Assembly: GCF_006345805.1 (NCBI RefSeq)
Contig: NC_043000.1
Coordinates: forward strand, 6,448,001-6,512,000
Origin: Octopus sinensis
Taxonomy: Eukaryota
Reading direction: 5' to 3'
Length of the DNA stretch: 64,000 nucleotides
Position numbers and translations under genes: made by a program. The first letter of the stretch is position 1. The number at the start of each line of letters is the position of its first letter. Under the pieces are notes generated by a model. That model was not told where the DNA came from. It made no database searches and saw only the letters and a program-made list of their open reading frames with translations. This document shows, piece by piece, positions 8,387-56,649 of the stretch.

Positions 8387-8597
8387 TCTTTAAATATAAT
8401 GATAAAAAAATATTTTAACTATTCTCAGTGCAAATTCAACTTTTATTTTTCCTATATGTATATTCTTTTTTTGGAACAGTGAAACTTGAAGCAGATAAAG
8501 ATGTAAATAAATAGCATGTAAATATTAGGTTTCAAAAACCCTTTGGATGGAAAAAGCTGAAGGTTGTCCATGAACATTTTGTGTGTGTGTGTGTGTG

Positions 8598-9460
8598 TGT
8601 TTGGTGTAATACCCAATGACTGGTACAACAGCATAATTGTTAGCTGCTACAAGGGTAAGGGTGATGTTTTAGATAGAAGCAATTATAGAGGCATCAAACT
8701 CCTAGACCAGGTGATGAAAATTACAATGACGGTTATAGCCCAATTAATTAAGAGCAGAATTAGGCTAGATGAAATGCAGCTCTGCTTTGTCCAGGGGAGA
8801 AGCACTACTGACACTATTTTCATAGTCAGGCAACGGCAAGGGAAGTACTTAGCTAAGAATAAACCATTATACTTGTCATTCATTGATCTAGAGAAAACTT
8901 TCGATAGAGTACCCTGTTGTGTGATATGGTGGGCTTTGAGGAGGCTAGGGATAGACAAGTGGCTGGTGAAAGCTGTACAGGCCATGTACAGAGACACTGT
9001 CAATAAGGTGAGAGTTAACCATGAGTACAGCAAAGAATTTGCAAGAAAGAAGACTGCACTGGTTTGGTCATATGATGCAGATGGATGCTGACAGCTCCAT
9101 AAAGAAGTGACAAGCTCTCAAAGTAGATGGAACATGTGTAAGTAGAGGACCCAGGAAGATATGGGACGGAGTACTGAAGAATGACCTTTGGATGCCGAAC
9201 TGTTCAGGCAAGCTGACAAGGGGCCAGGATGCCTGGCACCTTGCTGTACTCAAGAAGACCCGAGCACTACAGCAGAAGTGTTAAATCTAGTTCTCCCTGG
9301 TAGAGAGGATTGACTAGCAAGAGTCCTGTGTCAGTGCCATGTGAAATGCACTTATGACAATGCTACATAAAAGCACTCATGAGGTGCCACTTAAAAGTGC
9401 CTGTGAGGTGTCATGTTAAAATATCTATACGGTGCCATGTAAAAGCACTCATGCAGAGCA
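8598..9460 (+). mobile_element. RTE-clade LINE fragment (RT N-terminal part joined by an internal deletion to the 3' end)
   Basis: IPNDWYNSIIVSCYKGKGD..DRSNYRGIKLL...GRSTTDTIF...LSFIDLEKTFDRVP, followed by the C-terminal 'WFGH..QM...RGPRKIW' region and gtaaaagcac tail repeats. Confidence 0.9.
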
Positions 9461-14664: not shown

Positions 14665-15010
14665 TATATATTTTCACTTGTTTATTACGGTTCTTATTTT
14701 AACTCATGTCTAATGTCCGGAAACCTTTCGTCATACATCTGTGACCTCTTCAGCGATACTTTCTGTCCTCCTGTATGCTCCTGTGTGCTCCTCATGTGTT
14801 TCTACAAATGCACACAGGAATACAGATGCAAACGCATGTGCATATAAGGATACACATCATAGAACACAATGGACTAAGTGGAGCAGGAGCACACACACGG
14901 ACAGAAAGTGTTGCTGAAGAGGTCACAGATGTGTGACAAAAGATTTCTGGACATTGGATATGAGTTAAAATAAAAACAGTAATAAATGAGTGAAGAACAA
15001 ATATATAATG
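14665..15010. mobile_element. Fold-back Penelope-type tail with hammerhead-like cores
   Basis: ~14670-14795 is inverted relative to ~14880-15005. Core CUGAAGA-g-guca(...)ugac-GAAA occurs at 14714-14758 (-) and 14909-14953 (+). Stem I is weak. Confidence 0.55.
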
Positions 15011-18260: not shown

Positions 18261-20996
18261 ATATATGAAGAGCTTCTTTCAGTTTTCATCCACCAAATCC
18301 ATTCACAAGGTTTTGGCCAGCCCGAGACTATAGTAGTAGACCCTTCAGGGGACTGAACCAGGAACCATGTGGTTGGGAAGCAAGCGCTTCTTACTGCACA
18401 GTCATGTCTGTGCCGATAATGAAACATTTTCAAAATATTTCCATCTGTATTACATTTCAATCAGTCTGGTACTTAATTGACTTCAGGTGTCTTATTAATA
18501 GATGTGTACGTAGTATTATATTGGGTTAAGACTATGTATTATGTAACTGACACTGGCATTTTGCAGTTATGACGACAAGGACTCCAGTTTATTTTACCAA
18601 CAGAACAGCCTGCTTGTGAAATTAACATGCAAGATACATGCACCCTTAACATAGTTCTCAGGGAGACTCACCGTGAGACAGAATGTGACAAGGCTGGCCC
18701 TTAGAAATATAGGTTCTACTCATTTTTGTCAGCTGAGTAGAGTGGGGCAATATGAAATAAAGTGTCTTGTTTAAGGACACAATGCATCACTGAGAATTGA
18801 ACTCATGACCATATGATTGCGAGCTGAATACCCTAACTGCTAAGCCACACTTTGTACACATACAGGAATGTGTTATGTACTCATAGAGGAATGAAACACT
18901 TGATAATTGGAGATCAAACCACTCAAAGTGTATTCTAGATATAAATTTTTAAAAAGTGTTCTGCTTGAAAGGTGAGATTATTAGTCAAAACAATTGTAAC
19001 ATTTTATGGAATAAATCTTGAAGCAGACAAAGCTATAAATAATAGTGTGTAAATATTGGGTTGAAAAAGAAACCCCCCTACTTTTTAGATAAAAAAAGTC
19101 AAAGGCTGCCCTTGGGATGTGAACCCACATCTCTTTTATGCATGACAGATGATCTACCGTTGGACCAAAGCAGTTCTCTGAAATTCTCTATCCATTTTAG
19201 AAGCTTTGTTCTTACCAGTGAAAATTGTATGGTGTTGACATCATAAGAATTTATAAACTTTTGAGAGAATGTAGAATAATTTTTATTTTGGAAGAGATCT
19301 CAAAGCACAAATAAAACTATAAATAACATCAGGTAAATCTAGGATGCATCTCAGCAATTTGCTTAAATATTTTCTTTTGTAAGGGAGAGGATTGATACCG
19401 TATTTACTTATTTTGTAATAATCCCTTTTACTAAAGGCACAAGGCCTGAAATTTGTGAAGAGGGGGCTAGTTGATTACATCAACCTCAGTGTTTCACTGG
19501 TACTTAATTTATCGACCCCAGAAAGATGAAAGCAAAGTTGACCTTGGTGAAATTTGAACTCAGAACGTAAAGACGGATGAAATACCTATTTCTTTACTAC
19601 CCACACGGGGTTAAACACAGAGGGGACGAACAAGGACAGACAAACGGAATAAGTCGATTATATTGACCCCAGTGCATAACTGGTACTTATTTAATCGACC
19701 CCGAAAGGATGAAAGGCAAAGTCGACCTCGGCAGAATTTGAACTCAGAATGTAGTGGCAGACGAAAGCATTTTGCCCGATGTGCTAACCACTCTGCCAGC
19801 TTGCCACCTTACTTATTTTGTAATGATAACAACAATAATGATGATTTCAAATTTTGGCAAAAGGCCAGCAATTTTGAAAGAGAATGAAAGTCAGTTACAT
19901 AGACCCCAGTGCTCAGCTGGTACTTATTTCATAGAACCCAAAAGGATGAAAGGCAAAGTCAACCCTGGCAACATTCAAACTCAGAATGTAAAGAGATGAA
20001 ATATTGCTAAGCATTTTGCCCAGTGTGCTAACAATGCTGTCAGCTCACCACCTTAATAACAATAATAATATTCCAATAACATATATCTATTTTGAATTAG
20101 CCTTTTAGCATTAAAACCAGCCGTATCCAACCCAAATATTATACCTGTTTTATGTTCATACCAGACAAATTTGGTCTTTCACATGTAGTATCATCCTACA
20201 TGTATCATTCTAGCCTCTAACATGTATCTTTCTATATATCATACAATGTCAATCTAAAAATACACTATCATATCATTTAAATCTTAAAAGCCATGAGATA
20301 ACGAATGATAAACTTAAAACAATGTGAACAAATAATGACAAAGTTATCTGAGTGCTAACGGGTTAAATTACCTTGTGAGTGTAATTTATTTATTTGTGGA
20401 AATCAGATAACTTCTTTCAAATCAGAAGTTACTGCTAATTCATTTTTTGTTTTCGTTTTTGTTTTCAAATCAGAAAGAACAAAAGAGAGAAAGAGACATT
20501 GTTGGTTCATGATGTGCTACACAGACACAGAAGTGCCAGCAGCCAGACTTGTCCCAGATATGTGCAGATTGAGGATGGAAATTTTCTGCACAGACTTATT
20601 ACTGCGTCTGAGTATTGCTCACTTGTGGGGTTGTACAATTGTTGTTATATGAACGACATCTAATCAAGTCTGTTAATCAAGTATGACACCTAGTCAAGTC
20701 TATTAGGAAGTAATTACAACATGGAAGGTTCATCTTTGCCATTCAAAAGCGAAAGTCTGTTAACTTCATTTAATTATTTATTACTTGGTGCCAAAATGTT
20801 CATTGTATTGTCCGTGACCTGGTCACTAGCATAATTCCACTGCAACAGATCTGAAACTAGGTTTTTGGCCAATATGTATAAGCCTTGGGGTTATAACACC
20901 AAATAATAAGTGATCAAGTGAAGCTGACAGCTTTTGTGTGTTTTTCGAAAAGCTAAAGTGAGTCTTCAAAACAGTAATTATTTTAGTTTCAGGACA

Positions 20997-21032
<36 letters not shown>

Positions 21033-26004: not shown

Positions 26005-26322
26005 AAGGCACATGGCTCAGTGGTTTGAGCGTTGATCTTACGATCGTGAGGTTGTGAGTTCGAACCCTGGACTGGGCTGTGTGTTGTGTTCTTGAGCAAG
26101 ACACTTTATTTCCCGTTGCTCCAGTTCACTCAGCTGGCAAAAATGAGTTGCGACATCACAGGTGCGCTGGAATGCACTGGTGGCATGGAGAGAGGAGGCC
26201 GGTATGCATGGGTGACTGCTGGTCTTCATGTGTCTTCCATAAACAACCTTGCCCAGACTTGTGCCTGGGAGGGTAACTTTCTAGGTGCAATCCCATGATC
26301 AGTCATGACCAAAGGGGATCTC
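26005..26322 (+). mobile_element. tRNA-derived SINE
   Basis: A box TGGCTCAGTGGT and B box GTTCGAACCC, followed by 'cttgagcaagacacttta'. Related heads lie at ~34180-34437, ~35420-35708 (-) and ~56757-57031 (-). Confidence 0.75.
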
Positions 26323-26324
26323 AA

Positions 26325-26383
<59 letters not shown>

Positions 26384-26405
26384 ATATATATATATATATA
26401 TAAAA

Positions 26406-26436
<31 letters not shown>

Positions 26437-26439
<3 letters not shown>

Positions 26440-26862
26440 CGGAGATGTACTCGCATAGCAAGTAATTTGATCTGAGATCGTGTGCTGAAACGAAGACAAT
26501 TGCAGCATGGAAGGTGTTTGTAAGCCATTTAAGAAACACACAAAAGCCGTTCGATTCACTTCAACATTTAAGTTTAATTTGTCAAAATATTTTCGTCGCT
26601 AAAATCCGCAACCTGTTCACTGAAAAAATCCGTGCTGCACCTGTGATGTCGCAACTCATTTCTGCATCCGTGCAGCACGGATTTTTGTCAGTGAACAGGT
26701 TGCGGATTTTAGCGACGAAAATATTTTGACAAATTAAACTTAAATGTTGAAGTGAATCGAACGGCTTTTGTGTGTTTCTTAAATGGCTTATAAACACCTT
26801 CCACGCTGCAATTGTCTTCGTATATATATATATACATGTGTGTGTGTGTGTGTCTGTATATA

Positions 26863-26910
<48 letters not shown>

Positions 26911-27311
26911 TATATATATATATATATTACGGAGATGTACTCGCATAGCAAGTAATTTGATCTGAGATCGTGTGCTGAAACGAAGACAATTGCAGCATGG
27001 AAGGTGTTTGTAAGCCATTTAAGAAACACACAAAAGCCGTTCGATTCACTTCAACATTTAAGTTTAATTTGTCAAAATATTTTCGTCGCTAAAATCCGCA
27101 ACCTGTTCACTGACAAAAATCCGTGCTGCACCTGTGATGTCGCAACTCATTTCTGCATCCGTGCAGCACGGATTTTTGTCAGTGAACAGGTTGCGGATTT
27201 TAGCGACGAAAATATTTTGACAAATTAAACTTAAATGTTGAAGTGAATCGAACGGCTTTTGTGTGTTTCTTAAATGGCTTATAAACACCTTCCACGCTGC
27301 AATTGTCTTCG
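26437..27311. repeat. Tandem pair (~490-bp period) of a near-perfect ~330-bp fold-back element in (TA)n
   Basis: Arms 26491-26640 and 26670-26820 with a 29-nt loop. Repeated at ~26981-27311. Confidence 0.9.
26687..26730 (+). ncRNA. Minimal hammerhead-like motif, G3-C8 core variant
   Basis: guca-GUGAACA-g-guugc(ggauuuua)gcgac-GAA-AAUAUU-U-ugac. Further copies lie at 27178-27221 (+), 26581-26624 (-) and 27071-27114 (-). Confidence 0.6.
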
Positions 27312-27353
27312 TATATATATATATACATGTGTGTGTGTGTGTGTGTGTCTGTA

Positions 27354-27444
<91 letters not shown>

Positions 27445-27935
27445 AAGGTAGATAGATAGATACAGATATAAATATAGATATATATACCTACACAGATACA
27501 CACACAAACCCACACAAACATACACACATATACATATACACATACACAAACACACATATGTATGGCAGCTCTCCATCATTCAATGATGAGAATTCAGTTT
27601 TTGAATGAACCTAATTAACACACTCATTGAATTAACATGCAAGTGGCTGAGCATTGCACAGACACATGTACTCTTAATATTATTCACAAGTAGTATCAGT
27701 GTGTGATATAGAGCATAACAGGGGCTGTACCTTTTTTTTCTGAATTACTTGTATAATGAACCTGACAGGCTTCTATACAGTTTCCATCTACCCTGTTTCA
27801 CTCACAAAGTATGGCAATAGAAAATGAGGTTGCCCAAGATACGTAACATCTTGGTCAAATGTGACTTTGGGGCAAACGTCTTAGTCAACCAATCTGCACC
27901 TGTATACGTGTGCGTGTGTATGTGTTTGTGTGTAC

Positions 27936-28360: not shown

Positions 28361-28602
28361 ATATATATATATATATATATATGCATGCACACACATACAC
28401 ACACTCACTTCCTGTCCTTTTTTGTATTGTCTAACTCTCCAAATATTTTGTTGTCACCCGTTACATTCTTGTTCAATTTTGTTTTTGTTTTTCTATGCAT
28501 ACATATAGCGGCATACATACACTTTTGGTCTCCTGTATGTCAGAACATAGATATATCTATATATATAAAACTGAGAATGTCTGTCTGTCTGTCTGTGTGT
28601 TT

Positions 28603-29745
28603 CCCTAAAACTTGAGAACTACACAACCAATTTCATTCAAATTTTACACATGCCTTATTTAGGATCCGGGGAGTGTCATCGGCAAATTTTTAACTTTTTG
28701 CCTAGGGCGAGCCCACAGCAATATCATATCTTCTCCACTACGATTCCCTAAAACGTGAGAACTACACAACCAATTTCATTCAAATTTTACACATGCCTTA
28801 TTTAGGATCCGGGGAGTGTCATCGGCAAATTTTTAACTTTTTGCCTAGGGCGAGCCCACAGCAATATCATATCTTCTCCACTACGATTCCCTAAAACGTG
28901 AGAACTACACAACCAATTTCATTCAAATTTTACACATGCCTTATTTAGGATCCGGGGAGTGTCATCGGCAAATTTTTAACTTTTTGCCTAGGAGCGAGCC
29001 CACAGCAATATCATATCTTCTCCACTACGATCCCTAAAACGTGAGAACTACACAACCAATTTCATTCAAATTTTACACATGCCTTATTTAGGATCCGGGG
29101 AGTGTCATCGGCAAATTTTTAACTTTTTGCCTAGGGCGAGCCCACAGCAATATCATATCTTCTCCACTACGATTCCCTAAAACGTGAGAACTACACAACC
29201 AATTTCATTCAAATTTTACACATGCCTTATTTAGGATCCGGGGAGTGTCATCGGCAAATTTTTAACTTTTTGCCTAGGGCGAGCCCACAGCAATATCATA
29301 TCTTCTCCACTACGATTCCCTAAAACGTGAGAACTACACAACCAATTTCATTCAAATTTTACACATGCCTTATTTAGGATCGGGGAGGAGTTCATCGGCA
29401 AATTTTTAACTTTTTGCCTAGGCGAGCCCACAGCAATATCATATCTTCTCCACTACGATTCCCTAAAACGTGAGAACTACACAACAATTTCATTCAAATT
29501 TTACACATGCCTTATTTAGGGTCCGGGGAGTGTCATCGGCAAATTTTTAACTTTTTGCCTAGGGCGAGCCCACAGCAATATCATATCTTCTCCACTACGA
29601 TTCCCTAAAACGTGAGAACTACACAACCAATTTCATTCAAATTTTACATATGCCTTACTTAGAGTCCATGTAGTTTCGTGGGCAAAAAAAATGTTCAACT
29701 TCTTGCCTAGGGCGAGCCCATAGCAATATCATATCTTCTCCACTA
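28603..29745 (+). repeat. Tandem array, 8 x 143 bp
   Basis: The unit ccctaaaacgtgagaactacacaacc...ctccactacgatt starts at 28603, 28746, 28889, 29032, 29175, 29318, 29461 and 29603. Units are nearly identical; the last one diverges. Confidence 0.95.
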
Positions 29746-48137: not shown

Positions 48138-49467
48138 AGTAGTTGATAGTTTCCGTTACCTAGGTGACCAAGTCAGTAGCGGGGGTGGGTGCGCTGAAAG
48201 TATAACTGCTAGAGTAAGAATAGCCTGGGCAAAGTTTAGAGAGCTCTTACCCCTGCTGGTGACAAAAGGCCTCTCGCTCAAAGTAAAAGGCAGACTGTAT
48301 GATGCATGTGTACGTACAGCCATGCTACATGGTAGTGAAACTTGGGCTGTGACTGCTGAGGATTTGCGTAAGCTCGCAAGAAATGAAGCTAGTATGCTCC
48401 GATGGATGTGTAACGTCAGTGTTCATAATCAACAGAGTGTAAGTACCTTGAGAGAAAGTTGAACCTAAGAAGCATCAGTTGTTGTGTGCAAGAGAGACGT
48501 ATGCGCTGGTATGGTCATGTGATGAGAATGGCTGAAGATAGTTGTGTGCGAAAGTGCCACACCCTGGCAGTTGAGGGGACCTGTGGAAGAGGTAGACCCA
48601 GGAAAACCTGGGTCGAGGCGGTGAAGCACGACCTTCGAACTTTAGGTCTCACCAAGGAAATGACCAGTGACCGAGACCTTTGGAAGTATGCTGTGCGTGA
48701 GAAAACCCAGCAAGACCAGTGAGAACAGTCAAAATCAAAATCAAACCAAATTGAGGTCGATCAACATCAGGGCCCCCGTGCAGGTGACACGTAAAAGCAC
48801 CATCCGTTCGTGGCCATTTGCCAGCCCTGTCTGGCCCCCATGTCGGTGACATGTAAAAGCACCATCCGTTCGTGGCCGTTTGCCAGCTCTGTCTGGCCCC
48901 CGTGCCGGTGACACGTAAAAGCACCATCCGTTCGTGGCCGTTTGCCAGCCCTGTCTGGCCCCCATGTCGGTGACATGTAAAAGCACCATCCGTTCGTGGC
49001 CGTTTGCCAGCCCTGTCTGGCCCCCATGTCGGTGACATGTAAAAGCACCATTCGTTCGTGTCCGTTGCCAGCCTCGCCTGGCCCCTGTGCCGGTGACACG
49101 TAAAAGCACCATCCGTTTCGTGGCCGTTTGCCAGCTCTGTCTGGCCCCCGTGTTGGTGGCACGTAAAAGCACCATCCGTTCGTGTCCGTTGCCAGCCTTG
49201 CCTGGCCCCGTGCCGGTGACACGTAAAAGCACCATCCGTTCGTGGCCGTTTGCCAGCTCTGTCTGGCACCTGTGCGGGTGGCACGTAAAAAGCACCCACT
49301 ACACTCACGGAGTGGTTGGCGTTAGGAAGGGCATCCAGCCGTAGAAACACTGCCAGATCTGACTGGGCCTGATGAAGCCTTCCAGCTTCACAGACCCCAG
49401 TTGAACCGTCCAACCCATGCTAGCATGGAGAACGGACGCTAAATGATGATGATGATGATGATGATGA
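48138..49467 (+). mobile_element. RTE LINE 3' portion with expanded ~60-bp tandem repeat in the 3' UTR
   Basis: VVDSFRYLGD...LSLKVKGRLYDACVRTAMLHGSETWAV...MRWYGHVMRM...GRGRPRKTW, then about 9 repeat units at 48775-49295 and a (GAT)n tail. Inserted in (TA)n. Confidence 0.92.
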
Positions 49468-55754: not shown

Positions 55755-56068
55755 TGTGTGTGTGTGTCTGTGTGTGTGCATGTGTGCACATGTGTGTGTC
55801 TAGGAGTGTATGTTTGACCCCAGCATCACTGTCACTGCTTGATTACTGATGTTGGTTTCTTTATATCCCTGTAACTCAGTGGTTCAGCAAAAGAACCTAG
55901 TAGAATAAGTGCCAGTCTTCAAAAACAAAAAAGAAATAAGAATTGGGATTGATTTCTTGGACTAAACTCTTCAAGGCTGTGCCCCAGCATGGCCACAGCT
56001 CAATAACTGTAACAAGTAAAACATGCAAAAGACAAAAGGTGATTTGTCAAAAAAATTTTAATTCTTAC

Positions 56069-56578
56069 CTCAATTGGTTCAGTGAATTCACAATCAAAAC
56101 TTTTTTCTTCCCCATTAAAAATCTTCATTTCGCAGAATTTGGACTGGGTCTCCCCTTTCACCGTATGACAAGAATAATGGTCAAAGTCACACATCTGCAA
56201 TCTCATAATGTAATTTTTCAAATGTTTTTCTTCAACAAATATGGCAAATTTTTCATTAAAAACTGGATTTTCAGTTTTACGTTTAATTCTTGTCTGAACT
56301 TCAAGGTCAAGTTTATCAAATGAAAATGATTGATGCTGTTTGTGCCGGTTGAAATTAAAAATAGATCGTTGGCTCCGATAGAGGCGGATGCGTACATAGT
56401 TGTCAACAGGTAAAGAATTTGGTTCCAATAACATCAAATCATTTGCTTTAATGATTTTGATGGTTAGTTTCTTTAGGTCTTGTTCATATTTCAGCTTATA
56501 TGATAAACGGCCCACTTTTGTTGTTTTAGTTGAGCCGTTGACTGTTGTAGAAGATGGATCTTTCTCATTTTCATCCAT
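56069..56578 (-). CDS. Synaptotagmin-family gene, exon C (C2A domain)
   Basis: ttcttacag|ATG GAT...ATT GAG|gtaag, 510 nt, phase 0/0. C2 motifs: GRLSYKLKY, LTIKIIKANDL, DNYVRIRL, QTRIKRKTENPVFNEKF, MCDFDHYS. Confidence 0.92.
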
Positions 56579-56649
56579 CTGTAAGAATTCCATGGAAAAA
56601 ATCAATTACTTTAATATACAGAAAAGAGCAACAAATACTATTTGTGAGA

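What the first reader, a model, noticed from the sequence alone, without database searches (positions are those of the whole stretch)
26687..26730. Hammerhead-like core with a swapped 3:8 pair (GUGAACA, G3-C8)
Seen: guca-GUGAACA-g-guugc/gcgac-GAA-AAUAUU-U-ugac has the full hammerhead layout. The CUGANGA box is changed at exactly positions 3 and 8, and the change is the same in all four local copies. Established: C3 and G8 form a Watson-Crick pair in the active hammerhead, and compensatory swaps can partly rescue activity. Inference: this is a natural G3-C8 variant that standard CUGANGA searches would miss. I cannot confirm from here whether it has been described before.
Basis: partly seen in the sequence, partly recalled or inferred. 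Interest (0 to 1): 0.85.

Follow-up and report, generated by a model that had tools for sequence, protein, structure and literature searches.

The report
Natural G3-C8 hammerhead in Penelope retrotransposon
This 44-base motif sits in the terminal repeat of a Penelope-like retrotransposon with thousands of copies in this animal genome, and it has the layout of a hammerhead self-cutting RNA with two paired core letters swapped (G-C instead of C-G), so it is likely a real but slow-cutting natural variant whose activity is still untested.

Summary
The motif is real and the numbering is right. It is the minimal type I hammerhead in the pseudo-LTR of a Penelope-like element (RT plus C-terminal GIY-YIG). 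The four local copies are one doubled inverted insertion, so they are not independent evidence. Genome-wide, 4,931 copies match a strict G3-C8 pattern (0 in the control), and 73 of 77 sampled copies keep G3-C8. Sister families carry the same fold with C3-G8 or U3-A8. G3-C8 is also kept in older relatives whose flanks are only 38-74% alike. A model trained without any G3-C8 sequence finds the motif (E about 6e-4). Cleavage is untested: 94 of 100 sampled copies span the predicted cut site, so they derive from uncut RNA. The engineered C3G/G8C swap is published as partly active, and natural U3-A8 is published. I found no natural G3-C8 in eight literature searches, but the largest variant survey (Lünse 2017) could not be read. 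This scan has noted G3-C8 hammerheads before, in phages and protist elements. Verdict: new variant of a known kind, probably a weakly active ribozyme.

The parts
26684..26733 (+). Minimal type I hammerhead motif with 7-bp stem I, 5-bp stem II and palindromic stem III remnant
   Evidence: sequence, fold, covariance model trained on non-G3-C8 relatives, 25 bits, E 6.4e-4
26691..26697 (+). Core box GTGAACA: G3 (26691) and C8 (26696) in place of C3 and G8
   Evidence: sequence; family counts
26698..26716 (+). Unpaired extra G between A9 and G10.1, then stem II / loop II closed by G10.1-C11.1
   Evidence: sequence; stem II pair probability 1.0 in the element's 5' RNA context; covariation
26717..26726 (+). 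G12-A13-A14, palindrome AATATT (predicted intermolecular stem III) and U17; predicted cut 3' of 26726
   Evidence: sequence; hammerhead numbering as in PMC4209133; cleavage inferred
26670..26821 (+). Short arm: PLE 5' fragment ending near the first reverse-transcription start site; carries the ORF start ATG at 26783
26437..26642 (-). Long arm: same fragment in inverted orientation, ending at the second start site (the PLE 'tail'); hammerhead core at 26591-26620 with one stem I base deleted
26637..26665 (.). Junction filler, a 29-nt inverted copy (96.6%) of nearby flank 26137-26165
   Evidence: L001 match converted to window coordinates
26927..27132 (-). Long arm of the tandem duplicate; core at 27081-27110
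27161..27312 (+). Short arm of the tandem duplicate; core at 27182-27211
26363..26437 (.). (TA)n microsatellite target flanking the insertion (also 26857-26927 and 27352-27486)

Best explanation
The motif is the hammerhead of a Penelope-like retrotransposon family and carries a G3-C8 core pair, which likely keeps it a weakly self-cleaving ribozyme that would cut 3' of U17 only as a dimer or with help from the element's protein. Shown: it lies in the pseudo-LTR about 0.9-1.0 kb after the stop of an RT/GIY-YIG ORF and 56 nt before the ATG of the next ORF; every other conserved core position is intact; the 3:8 pair is C-G, U-A or G-C in related families. Inferred: the G-C pair takes over the tertiary role of C3-G8; two AAUAUU palindromes form stem III in trans; U17 is favoured because C17 would pair with G3 and block the active site. 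Cutting is predicted to be slow, so most transcripts stay whole. Reverse transcription starting at two internal sites about 30-36 and 85-91 nt into the ORF then copies through the uncut ribozyme to the RNA's 5' end. That would give the thousands of 150- and 205-nt fragments, often joined as inverted pairs in (TA)n, of which this locus is one.
For: Motif 3' of the family's ORF in L081-L084, L091, L100 and 5' of the ORF start in L390. GIY-YIG Pfam match 25.1 bits over a cutoff of 22.6; YVDD and linker Cys motif in the alignment. Strict G3-C8 pattern: 4,931 matches, 0 in control; 73 of 77 copies chosen by a downstream 19-mer keep G3-C8. Same architecture without G3: 9,209 matches, 0 control; of the first 100 listed I count by hand 38 C-G, 52 U-A, 4 U.G and 6 mismatched. 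In 25 hand-picked representatives the 3:8 pair is GC 11, CG 10, UA 4, with none unpaired. Older ORF-linked subfamily (78-85% aa identity) keeps GTGAACA in 4 of 4 downstream repeats. Diverged relatives with 38-74% flank identity keep C8 in 31 of 36 listed rows by hand count, while N7 and loop II vary. Metagenome relatives carry C3-G8 (L303, L311) or U3-A8 (L304) at the same place; 0 hits in 763 kb of shuffles. A model built without G3-C8 rows finds all four local copies. Copy 3' ends are bimodal, 37 and 52 of 100, as described for the anole PLE, whose C3G/G8C double mutant partly cleaves and whose ribozyme needs the protein (PMC11167929). Predicted G3 pairing with position 17 is 0.60 with U and 0.98 with C; a G3-C8 variant was less active with C17 than with G17 (PMC3884650, data not shown there).
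Against: No cleavage data. 94 of 100 sampled copies begin 5' of the cut site; the 3 that begin at it are inversion junctions explained by stem I self-complementarity, so there is no genomic footprint of cutting. G3-C8 maps to one branch of the protein tree, so it is one evolutionary event, and the pair counts are not independent. A young sister family has C at the normally invariant A9, which shows that this clade can amplify with a damaged core. G3.G8 mismatch copies are 7 of the 8 ORF-linked copies that keep upstream repeat sequence. The AAUAUU duplex is weak on its own (-0.2 kcal/mol), and the cofold of two copies did not give the hammerhead dimer. No Rfam hammerhead match even at E up to 10.
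Confidence: 0.68

Rival explanations
1. The motif is a hammerhead-derived fold kept for a non-catalytic job (binding of the RT/EN protein, or translation of the ORF 56 nt downstream). The 3:8 pair is conserved for shape, and the RNA does not cut at a meaningful rate.
For: Copies come from uncut RNA. In the anole PLE, ribozyme-dead mutants insert normally in vitro and no RNA-seq ends mapped to the cut site (PMC11167929). The A9C sister family is abundant. A predicted G3.U17 wobble extends stem I into the active site.
Against: All catalytic positions (G12, the 8-position pair, A9, A13, A14, A15.1-U16.1, H17) are kept in this lineage, and the 3:8 pair is a feature of the active fold. The engineered double swap cleaves (PMC11167929; PMC8495972).
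Confidence: 0.22
2. The core is decaying neutrally. One master element acquired G3 and C8 by chance and was amplified, so family-wide fixation reflects only copy number.
For: Single origin on the tree; mismatch copies are common among ORF-linked upstream repeats; genomic copies drift at 3-5%.
Against: G3-C8 persists across lineages whose flanks have diverged to 38-74% identity while N7, loop II and stem III length changed. The other family-level change at these sites (U3-A8) is also complementary.
Confidence: 0.08
3. The motif is a chance look-alike inside a palindromic, MITE-like DNA repeat.
For: Locally the element is a near-perfect inverted repeat in (TA)n with no ORF nearby; no Rfam hit.
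Against: The arms are fragments of a PLE pseudo-LTR plus ORF start, breakpoints differ between loci, and canonical CUGANGA motifs occupy the homologous position in sister families.
Confidence: 0.02

Closest known systems
Minimal type I hammerheads of metazoan Penelope-like elements (Cervera and de la Peña 2014, PMC4209133)
   Same: [quoted passage not shown]
   Different: Core is G3-C8. The paper's text reports C3-G8 and the U3-A8 variant only; its supplement consensus is CUGANGAH, whereas the extra base here is G. Stem I is 7 bp rather than 4-5.
Natural U3-A8 hammerheads (Perreault 2011, PMC3088659; Schistosoma PLEs, PMC4209133)
   Same: Natural compensatory change of the 3:8 tertiary pair; a U3-A8 family also exists in this genome as a sister lineage
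   Different: U3-A8 needs two transitions and keeps pyrimidine-3/purine-8; G3-C8 needs two transversions and flips the pair
Poseidon element PAc of Anolis and its engineered C3G/G8C mutant (Frangieh 2024, PMC11167929)
   Same: Hammerhead close to the ORF start, two internal reverse-transcription start sites giving a 'tail', insertion from uncut RNA, AT-rich targets; the double swap partly cleaves
   Different: There the swap is a laboratory mutant. This family has a Cys-rich linker before the endonuclease (Neptune/Nematis-like), and its ATG lies 56 nt after the cut site rather than before it.
Small dimeric hammerhead variants near PLEs (Lünse 2017, PMC5785218; not held, known from the citation in PMC6765202 and from recall)
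   Same: Reduced stem III, dimer-dependent cleavage, PLE association
   Different: Unknown: I could not check whether G3-C8 cores are among its variants

Membership tests
PLE minimal type I hammerhead | Literal core C3-U4-G5-A6-N7-G8-A9 | tested here: not met
   GTGAACA: G3 and C8
PLE minimal type I hammerhead | Watson-Crick pair between positions 3 and 8 | tested here: met
   G-C here; C-G and U-A in sister families
PLE minimal type I hammerhead | U4 G5 A6, A9, G12 A13 A14, A15.1-U16.1, H17 | tested here: met
   sequence 26692-26726; H17 = U
PLE minimal type I hammerhead | Stem II closed by G10.1-C11.1 with one unpaired base 5' of it | tested here: met
   5 bp, probability 1.0; two inner pairs covary across families (the stem's outer letters were fixed by my search pattern)
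PLE minimal type I hammerhead | Stem I joining the two ends | tested here: met
   7 bp, probabilities 0.64-0.89 in the element's own 5' context; 0 in a read-through of this palindromic locus
PLE minimal type I hammerhead | Palindromic stem III remnant allowing a dimer | tested here: inconclusive
   AATATT is palindromic, but the duplex is weak and the cofold did not produce the dimer
PLE minimal type I hammerhead | Located in the pseudo-LTR of a PLE | tested here: met
PLE minimal type I hammerhead | Site-specific self-cleavage 3' of position 17 | not testable with these tools
   needs an in vitro assay or RNA-end data; only contigs were available
Rfam hammerhead families | Score above a family's gathering threshold | tested here: not met
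   no match in the window at gathering score, none among 40 matches at E up to 10 around the locus; canonical sister motifs at 14709-14762 and 14905-14958 are also missed
Penelope-like element (C-terminal EN+) | Single ORF with RT and C-terminal GIY-YIG endonuclease | tested here: met
   open frames of 717-1042 aa; GIY-YIG above cutoff; RT core motif YVDD aligned; RVT_1 only weak (E 0.002, below cutoff, in the sister protein) and absent for this family's protein
Penelope-like element (C-terminal EN+) | Pseudo-LTRs, inverted 5'-truncated partner copies, optional tail, (TA)n targets | tested here: met
   features as described in PMC8557442
Neptune/Nematis clades of PLE | CX2-5CxxC linker before GIY-YIG | tested here: met
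   C-X3-C-X2-C in the alignment; motif definition from PMC8557442
Neptune/Nematis clades of PLE | Phylogenetic placement with named clade members | not tested
   no named reference proteins in my tree; four short motifs had no match in the one supplement file held
Non-LTR retrozymes | Head-to-tail tandem monomers each with a hammerhead | tested here: not met
   dispersed solo or inverted fragments; only a two-unit local duplication here

The most novel reading that the evidence does not exclude
The G3-C8/U17 core is an active, co-adapted, deliberately slow hammerhead: position 17 changed with position 3 to avoid an inhibitory pair, and slow cutting lets the RNA serve as template while limiting long read-through transcripts, which would explain why cleavage-dead G3.G8 cores pile up in ORF-linked upstream repeats. 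One genome would then hold working C-G, U-A and G-C versions of the ribozyme's active-site pair, and relatives elsewhere possibly A-U, which is a natural test set for what PLE hammerheads are for.
Probability: 0.22. Interest if true: 0.72.

Novelty: new variant of a known kind. Interest (0 to 1): 0.5.

Why it matters
The 3:8 pair positions the general acid of the hammerhead. A flipped version fixed in thousands of genomic copies and kept through several source lineages would be natural confirmation of what has only been shown with laboratory mutants. It also means that searches built on CUGANGA or UUGANAA undercount ribozymes, and some PLE families scored as lacking a hammerhead may have one. 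Closely related families with three different pairs, one A9C family and mismatch copies give a ready series for testing whether PLE hammerheads need to cut at all, which is an open question in PMC8557442 and PMC11167929. The surprise is moderate, since U3-A8 is known in nature and the engineered G3-C8 swap is known to work partly.

Tried and rejected
Rfam scans gave no hammerhead family; the hits were hairpin look-alikes of the palindrome. A PDB sequence search with the ORF gave nothing. Search for RNA evidence: no RNA holder listed; only contigs could be laid, so expression, splicing and RNA ends were not tested. In the four runs laid (organism codes A-D; one may be the window's own source) no alternative letter at 8% or more was listed at positions 3 or 8, but 10 rows were not shown, so I use this only as a weak sign that the family is not an assembly artefact. 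Looking for copies that start at the cut site found no excess. I tested whether G3.G8 copies are a fossil intermediate between C3-G8 and G3-C8: they are scattered over old and young subfamilies with no shared diagnostic change, G3-C8 is older than these subfamilies, and one element has G8 in its upstream repeat but C8 in its downstream repeat; rejected as an intermediate. Whether the common 5' end at AG|ATG is a splice junction or a transcription start could not be decided: an intron-like 3' end precedes it, and no joint was seen in contigs. Cofolding did not reproduce the dimer. Literature searches for a natural G3-C8 found only engineered cases. Five relevant papers were not held (PMC5785218, PMC3334697, PMC1986816, PMC2151028, PMC4447102). 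Figures and image-based supplements (the hammerhead drawings of PMC8557442 file S2, most of PMC4209133's figures) could not be seen and may bear on novelty.

Full report
Observation. The motif is present as described. G3 is 26691, C8 is 26696, an unpaired G follows A9, stem II has 5 bp, GAA is at 26717-26719, the palindrome AATATT follows, U17 is 26726, and stem I reaches 7 bp. A pattern for it matches 4 times in the window and never in 100 shuffles. The four copies are not independent: a 206-nt arm on the minus strand and a 152-nt arm on the plus strand form one inverted insertion in (TA)n, and the whole was duplicated with a 490-nt period. The junction holds a 29-nt inverted copy of flank DNA from 26137-26165. 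Rfam has no hammerhead match here, but it also misses canonical sister motifs in the same window.

The element. The genome (G000, 2.72 Gb) is likely an octopus: the best named homolog of the element's protein is an Octopus vulgaris RT protein, which groups tightly with a sister family from this genome. A 17-mer from the motif occurs 6,728 times against 1 control match, and a downstream 19-mer 8,744 times against 2. One locus carried an inverted GIY-YIG fragment. [quoted passage not shown] The motif lies about 0.9-1.0 kb after the stop in L081-L084, L091 and L100. In L390 the same repeat runs on into the ORF, whose ATG is 56 nt after the predicted cut site. This is a Penelope-like element with pseudo-LTRs. 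The linker motif points to the Neptune/Nematis type as described in PMC8557442 (passages read); the clade was not tested against named references.

Fixation. A strict G3-C8 pattern has 4,931 matches and 0 controls. The corresponding non-C8 pattern has 366, of which the first 100 listed include by my count 30 G3.G8, 35 G3.U8 and 11 G3.A8 rows. I took all 100 listed matches of the downstream 19-mer (first 43 Mb of contig C1; arms of one palindrome and some duplicates count separately). 77 cover both sites and 73 of these are G3-C8. An older subfamily with 78-85% protein identity has GTGAACA in all four downstream repeats examined.

Covariation. Related PLE families carry the same architecture at the same position. 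A pattern excluding G3 has 9,209 matches and 0 controls; of the 100 listed I count 38 C3-G8, 52 U3-A8, 4 U.G and 6 mismatches. ORF linkage is shown for the C3-G8 families (L085, L086, L088, L127) and the U3-A8 family (L087, L097). One abundant C3-G8 family has C in place of A9. A further set of old G3 relatives, with flanks 38-74% identical to each other and to this family (11 sequences), has C8 in 31 of 36 listed rows by hand count, while N7, loop II and the palindrome length differ. On 25 hand-picked representatives the 3:8 pair is GC 11, CG 10, UA 4, and sliding the partners destroys the signal. These rows are related and hand-picked, and my patterns fixed much of the core and stem II, so the number of independent events is small. 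The protein tree places the G3-C8 family as sister to a clade of the U3-A8 and C3-G8 families (31 rows, no outgroup root; the old G3 relatives have no protein), so G3-C8 arose once here. Among the 25 best metagenome relatives scanned, three gave a strict motif: two C3-G8, one U3-A8, with none in 763 kb of shuffles. A looser look added one more U3-A8, one degenerate C3-G8 and a weak A3-U8 candidate. A covariance model built from 17 C3-G8 and U3-A8 motifs finds all four local copies at 23-25 bits (E 6e-4 to 2e-3, rough), two canonical sister copies at 50-51 bits, and one marginal hit at E 0.99.

How it likely works. In the element's own 5' context stems I and II form with probabilities 0.64-0.89 and 1.0; the intramolecular A15.1-U16.1 pair does not form (0.002). 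Activity would therefore need a dimer through the palindrome or protein help, as reported for PLE hammerheads (PMC4209133, parts 1-2 of 4 read; PMC11167929, parts 1-3 of 4 read). The engineered C3G/G8C swap partly restores cleavage in the anole PLE and in other hammerheads (PMC8495972, one passage). G3 is predicted to pair with U17 at 0.60 and would pair with C17 at 0.98. PMC3884650 (passages) notes, as data not shown, that G3-C8 works worse with C17 than with G17. U17 in this family fits that, but U17 also occurs in the U3-A8 family and in some C3-G8 copies, so co-adaptation is a suggestion only. That U17 is a slow cleavage site is recalled, not from a call. Copy ends show how the fragments arise: 3' ends fall at two sites about 55 nt apart inside the ORF start (37 and 52 of 100; the second class is capped by my reference but ends at the same boundary), and 52 of 100 5' ends cluster about 13-26 nt before the core. 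This matches internal initiation of reverse transcription on uncut RNA, as shown for the anole element.

Against activity. 94 of 100 copies span the cut site; the 3 that start there are inversion junctions. The A9C family shows that a damaged core does not stop amplification. Among copies that run into the ORF, 7 of the 8 that keep the upstream repeat have G3.G8 (about three independent lineages), whereas none of the other 16 with both sites covered does (28 of the 40 matches were fetched, plus 5 earlier loci). One such element has C8 in its downstream repeat. This is unexplained and post hoc. This particular locus would fold as one long hairpin if read through, so it is probably inert.

Novelty. 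Natural U3-A8 is published (PMC3088659, section 8 read; PMC4209133). Eight searches and term searches within PMC6155905, PMC6765202, PMC11014351, PMC13725137 (passages only) and the supplements held for PMC4209133 and PMC8557442 found no natural G3-C8. I read part 1 of 5 of bioRxiv 10.64898/2026.07.22.740005. Lünse 2017 and four other key papers were not held, and figures could not be seen, so 'not in print' is not established. Earlier notes of this scan report G3-C8 hammerheads in phages and in other Penelope-like elements; I did not test them. Verdict: a real, well-supported natural core variant of a known ribozyme in a known element class; activity likely weak and unproven.

Noticed in passing
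window 14709-14762 (-) and 14905-14958 (+): Inverted pair of canonical CTGAAGA minimal hammerheads from a sister PLE family; the plus copy has G12 changed to A.
   Followed up: partly
window about 20800-20830 (-) and 20907-20997 (+): Decayed remnant of the older G3-C8 relatives, core GTGACCA.
   Followed up: partly
L085:5862-5915, L086, L088, L089, L095, L096: Young, abundant sister PLE family whose hammerhead has C at the normally invariant A9 (CTGATGC); other copies of the family have A9.
   Followed up: partly
L392, L393, L400, L403, L406, L407, L409: G3.G8 mismatch cores in 7 of 8 ORF-linked copies that keep upstream repeat sequence, about three lineages; L431, the downstream repeat of the L392 element, has G3-C8.
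   Followed up: partly
L307:2810: Candidate A3-U8 hammerhead behind a related PLE ORF in a metagenome contig; stem I is weak.
   Followed up: no
L082:6480-6505: Branch-point-like and acceptor-like sequence just before the common 5' end of short copies; many copies start with an extra G, which could be a copied cap or a short first exon.
   Followed up: partly
window 26637-26665 versus 26137-26165: The inversion junction contains 29 nt copied from nearby flank, suggesting a template switch onto target-site DNA during insertion.
   Followed up: no
window 56000-56605 (-): Open frame with a C2 domain (E 1e-11), probably a host gene exon.
   Followed up: no
window 8561-9091 (+): Fragment of a LINE-type reverse transcriptase (RVT_1, E 4e-8).
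   Followed up: no
window 3842 (-): Another CTGATGA...CGAAA hammerhead-like string from an unrelated repeat; stems not checked.
   Followed up: no
window 28601-29745 and 48771-49296: Tandem arrays with periods 143 nt (8 copies) and 62 nt (8.5 copies).
   Followed up: no
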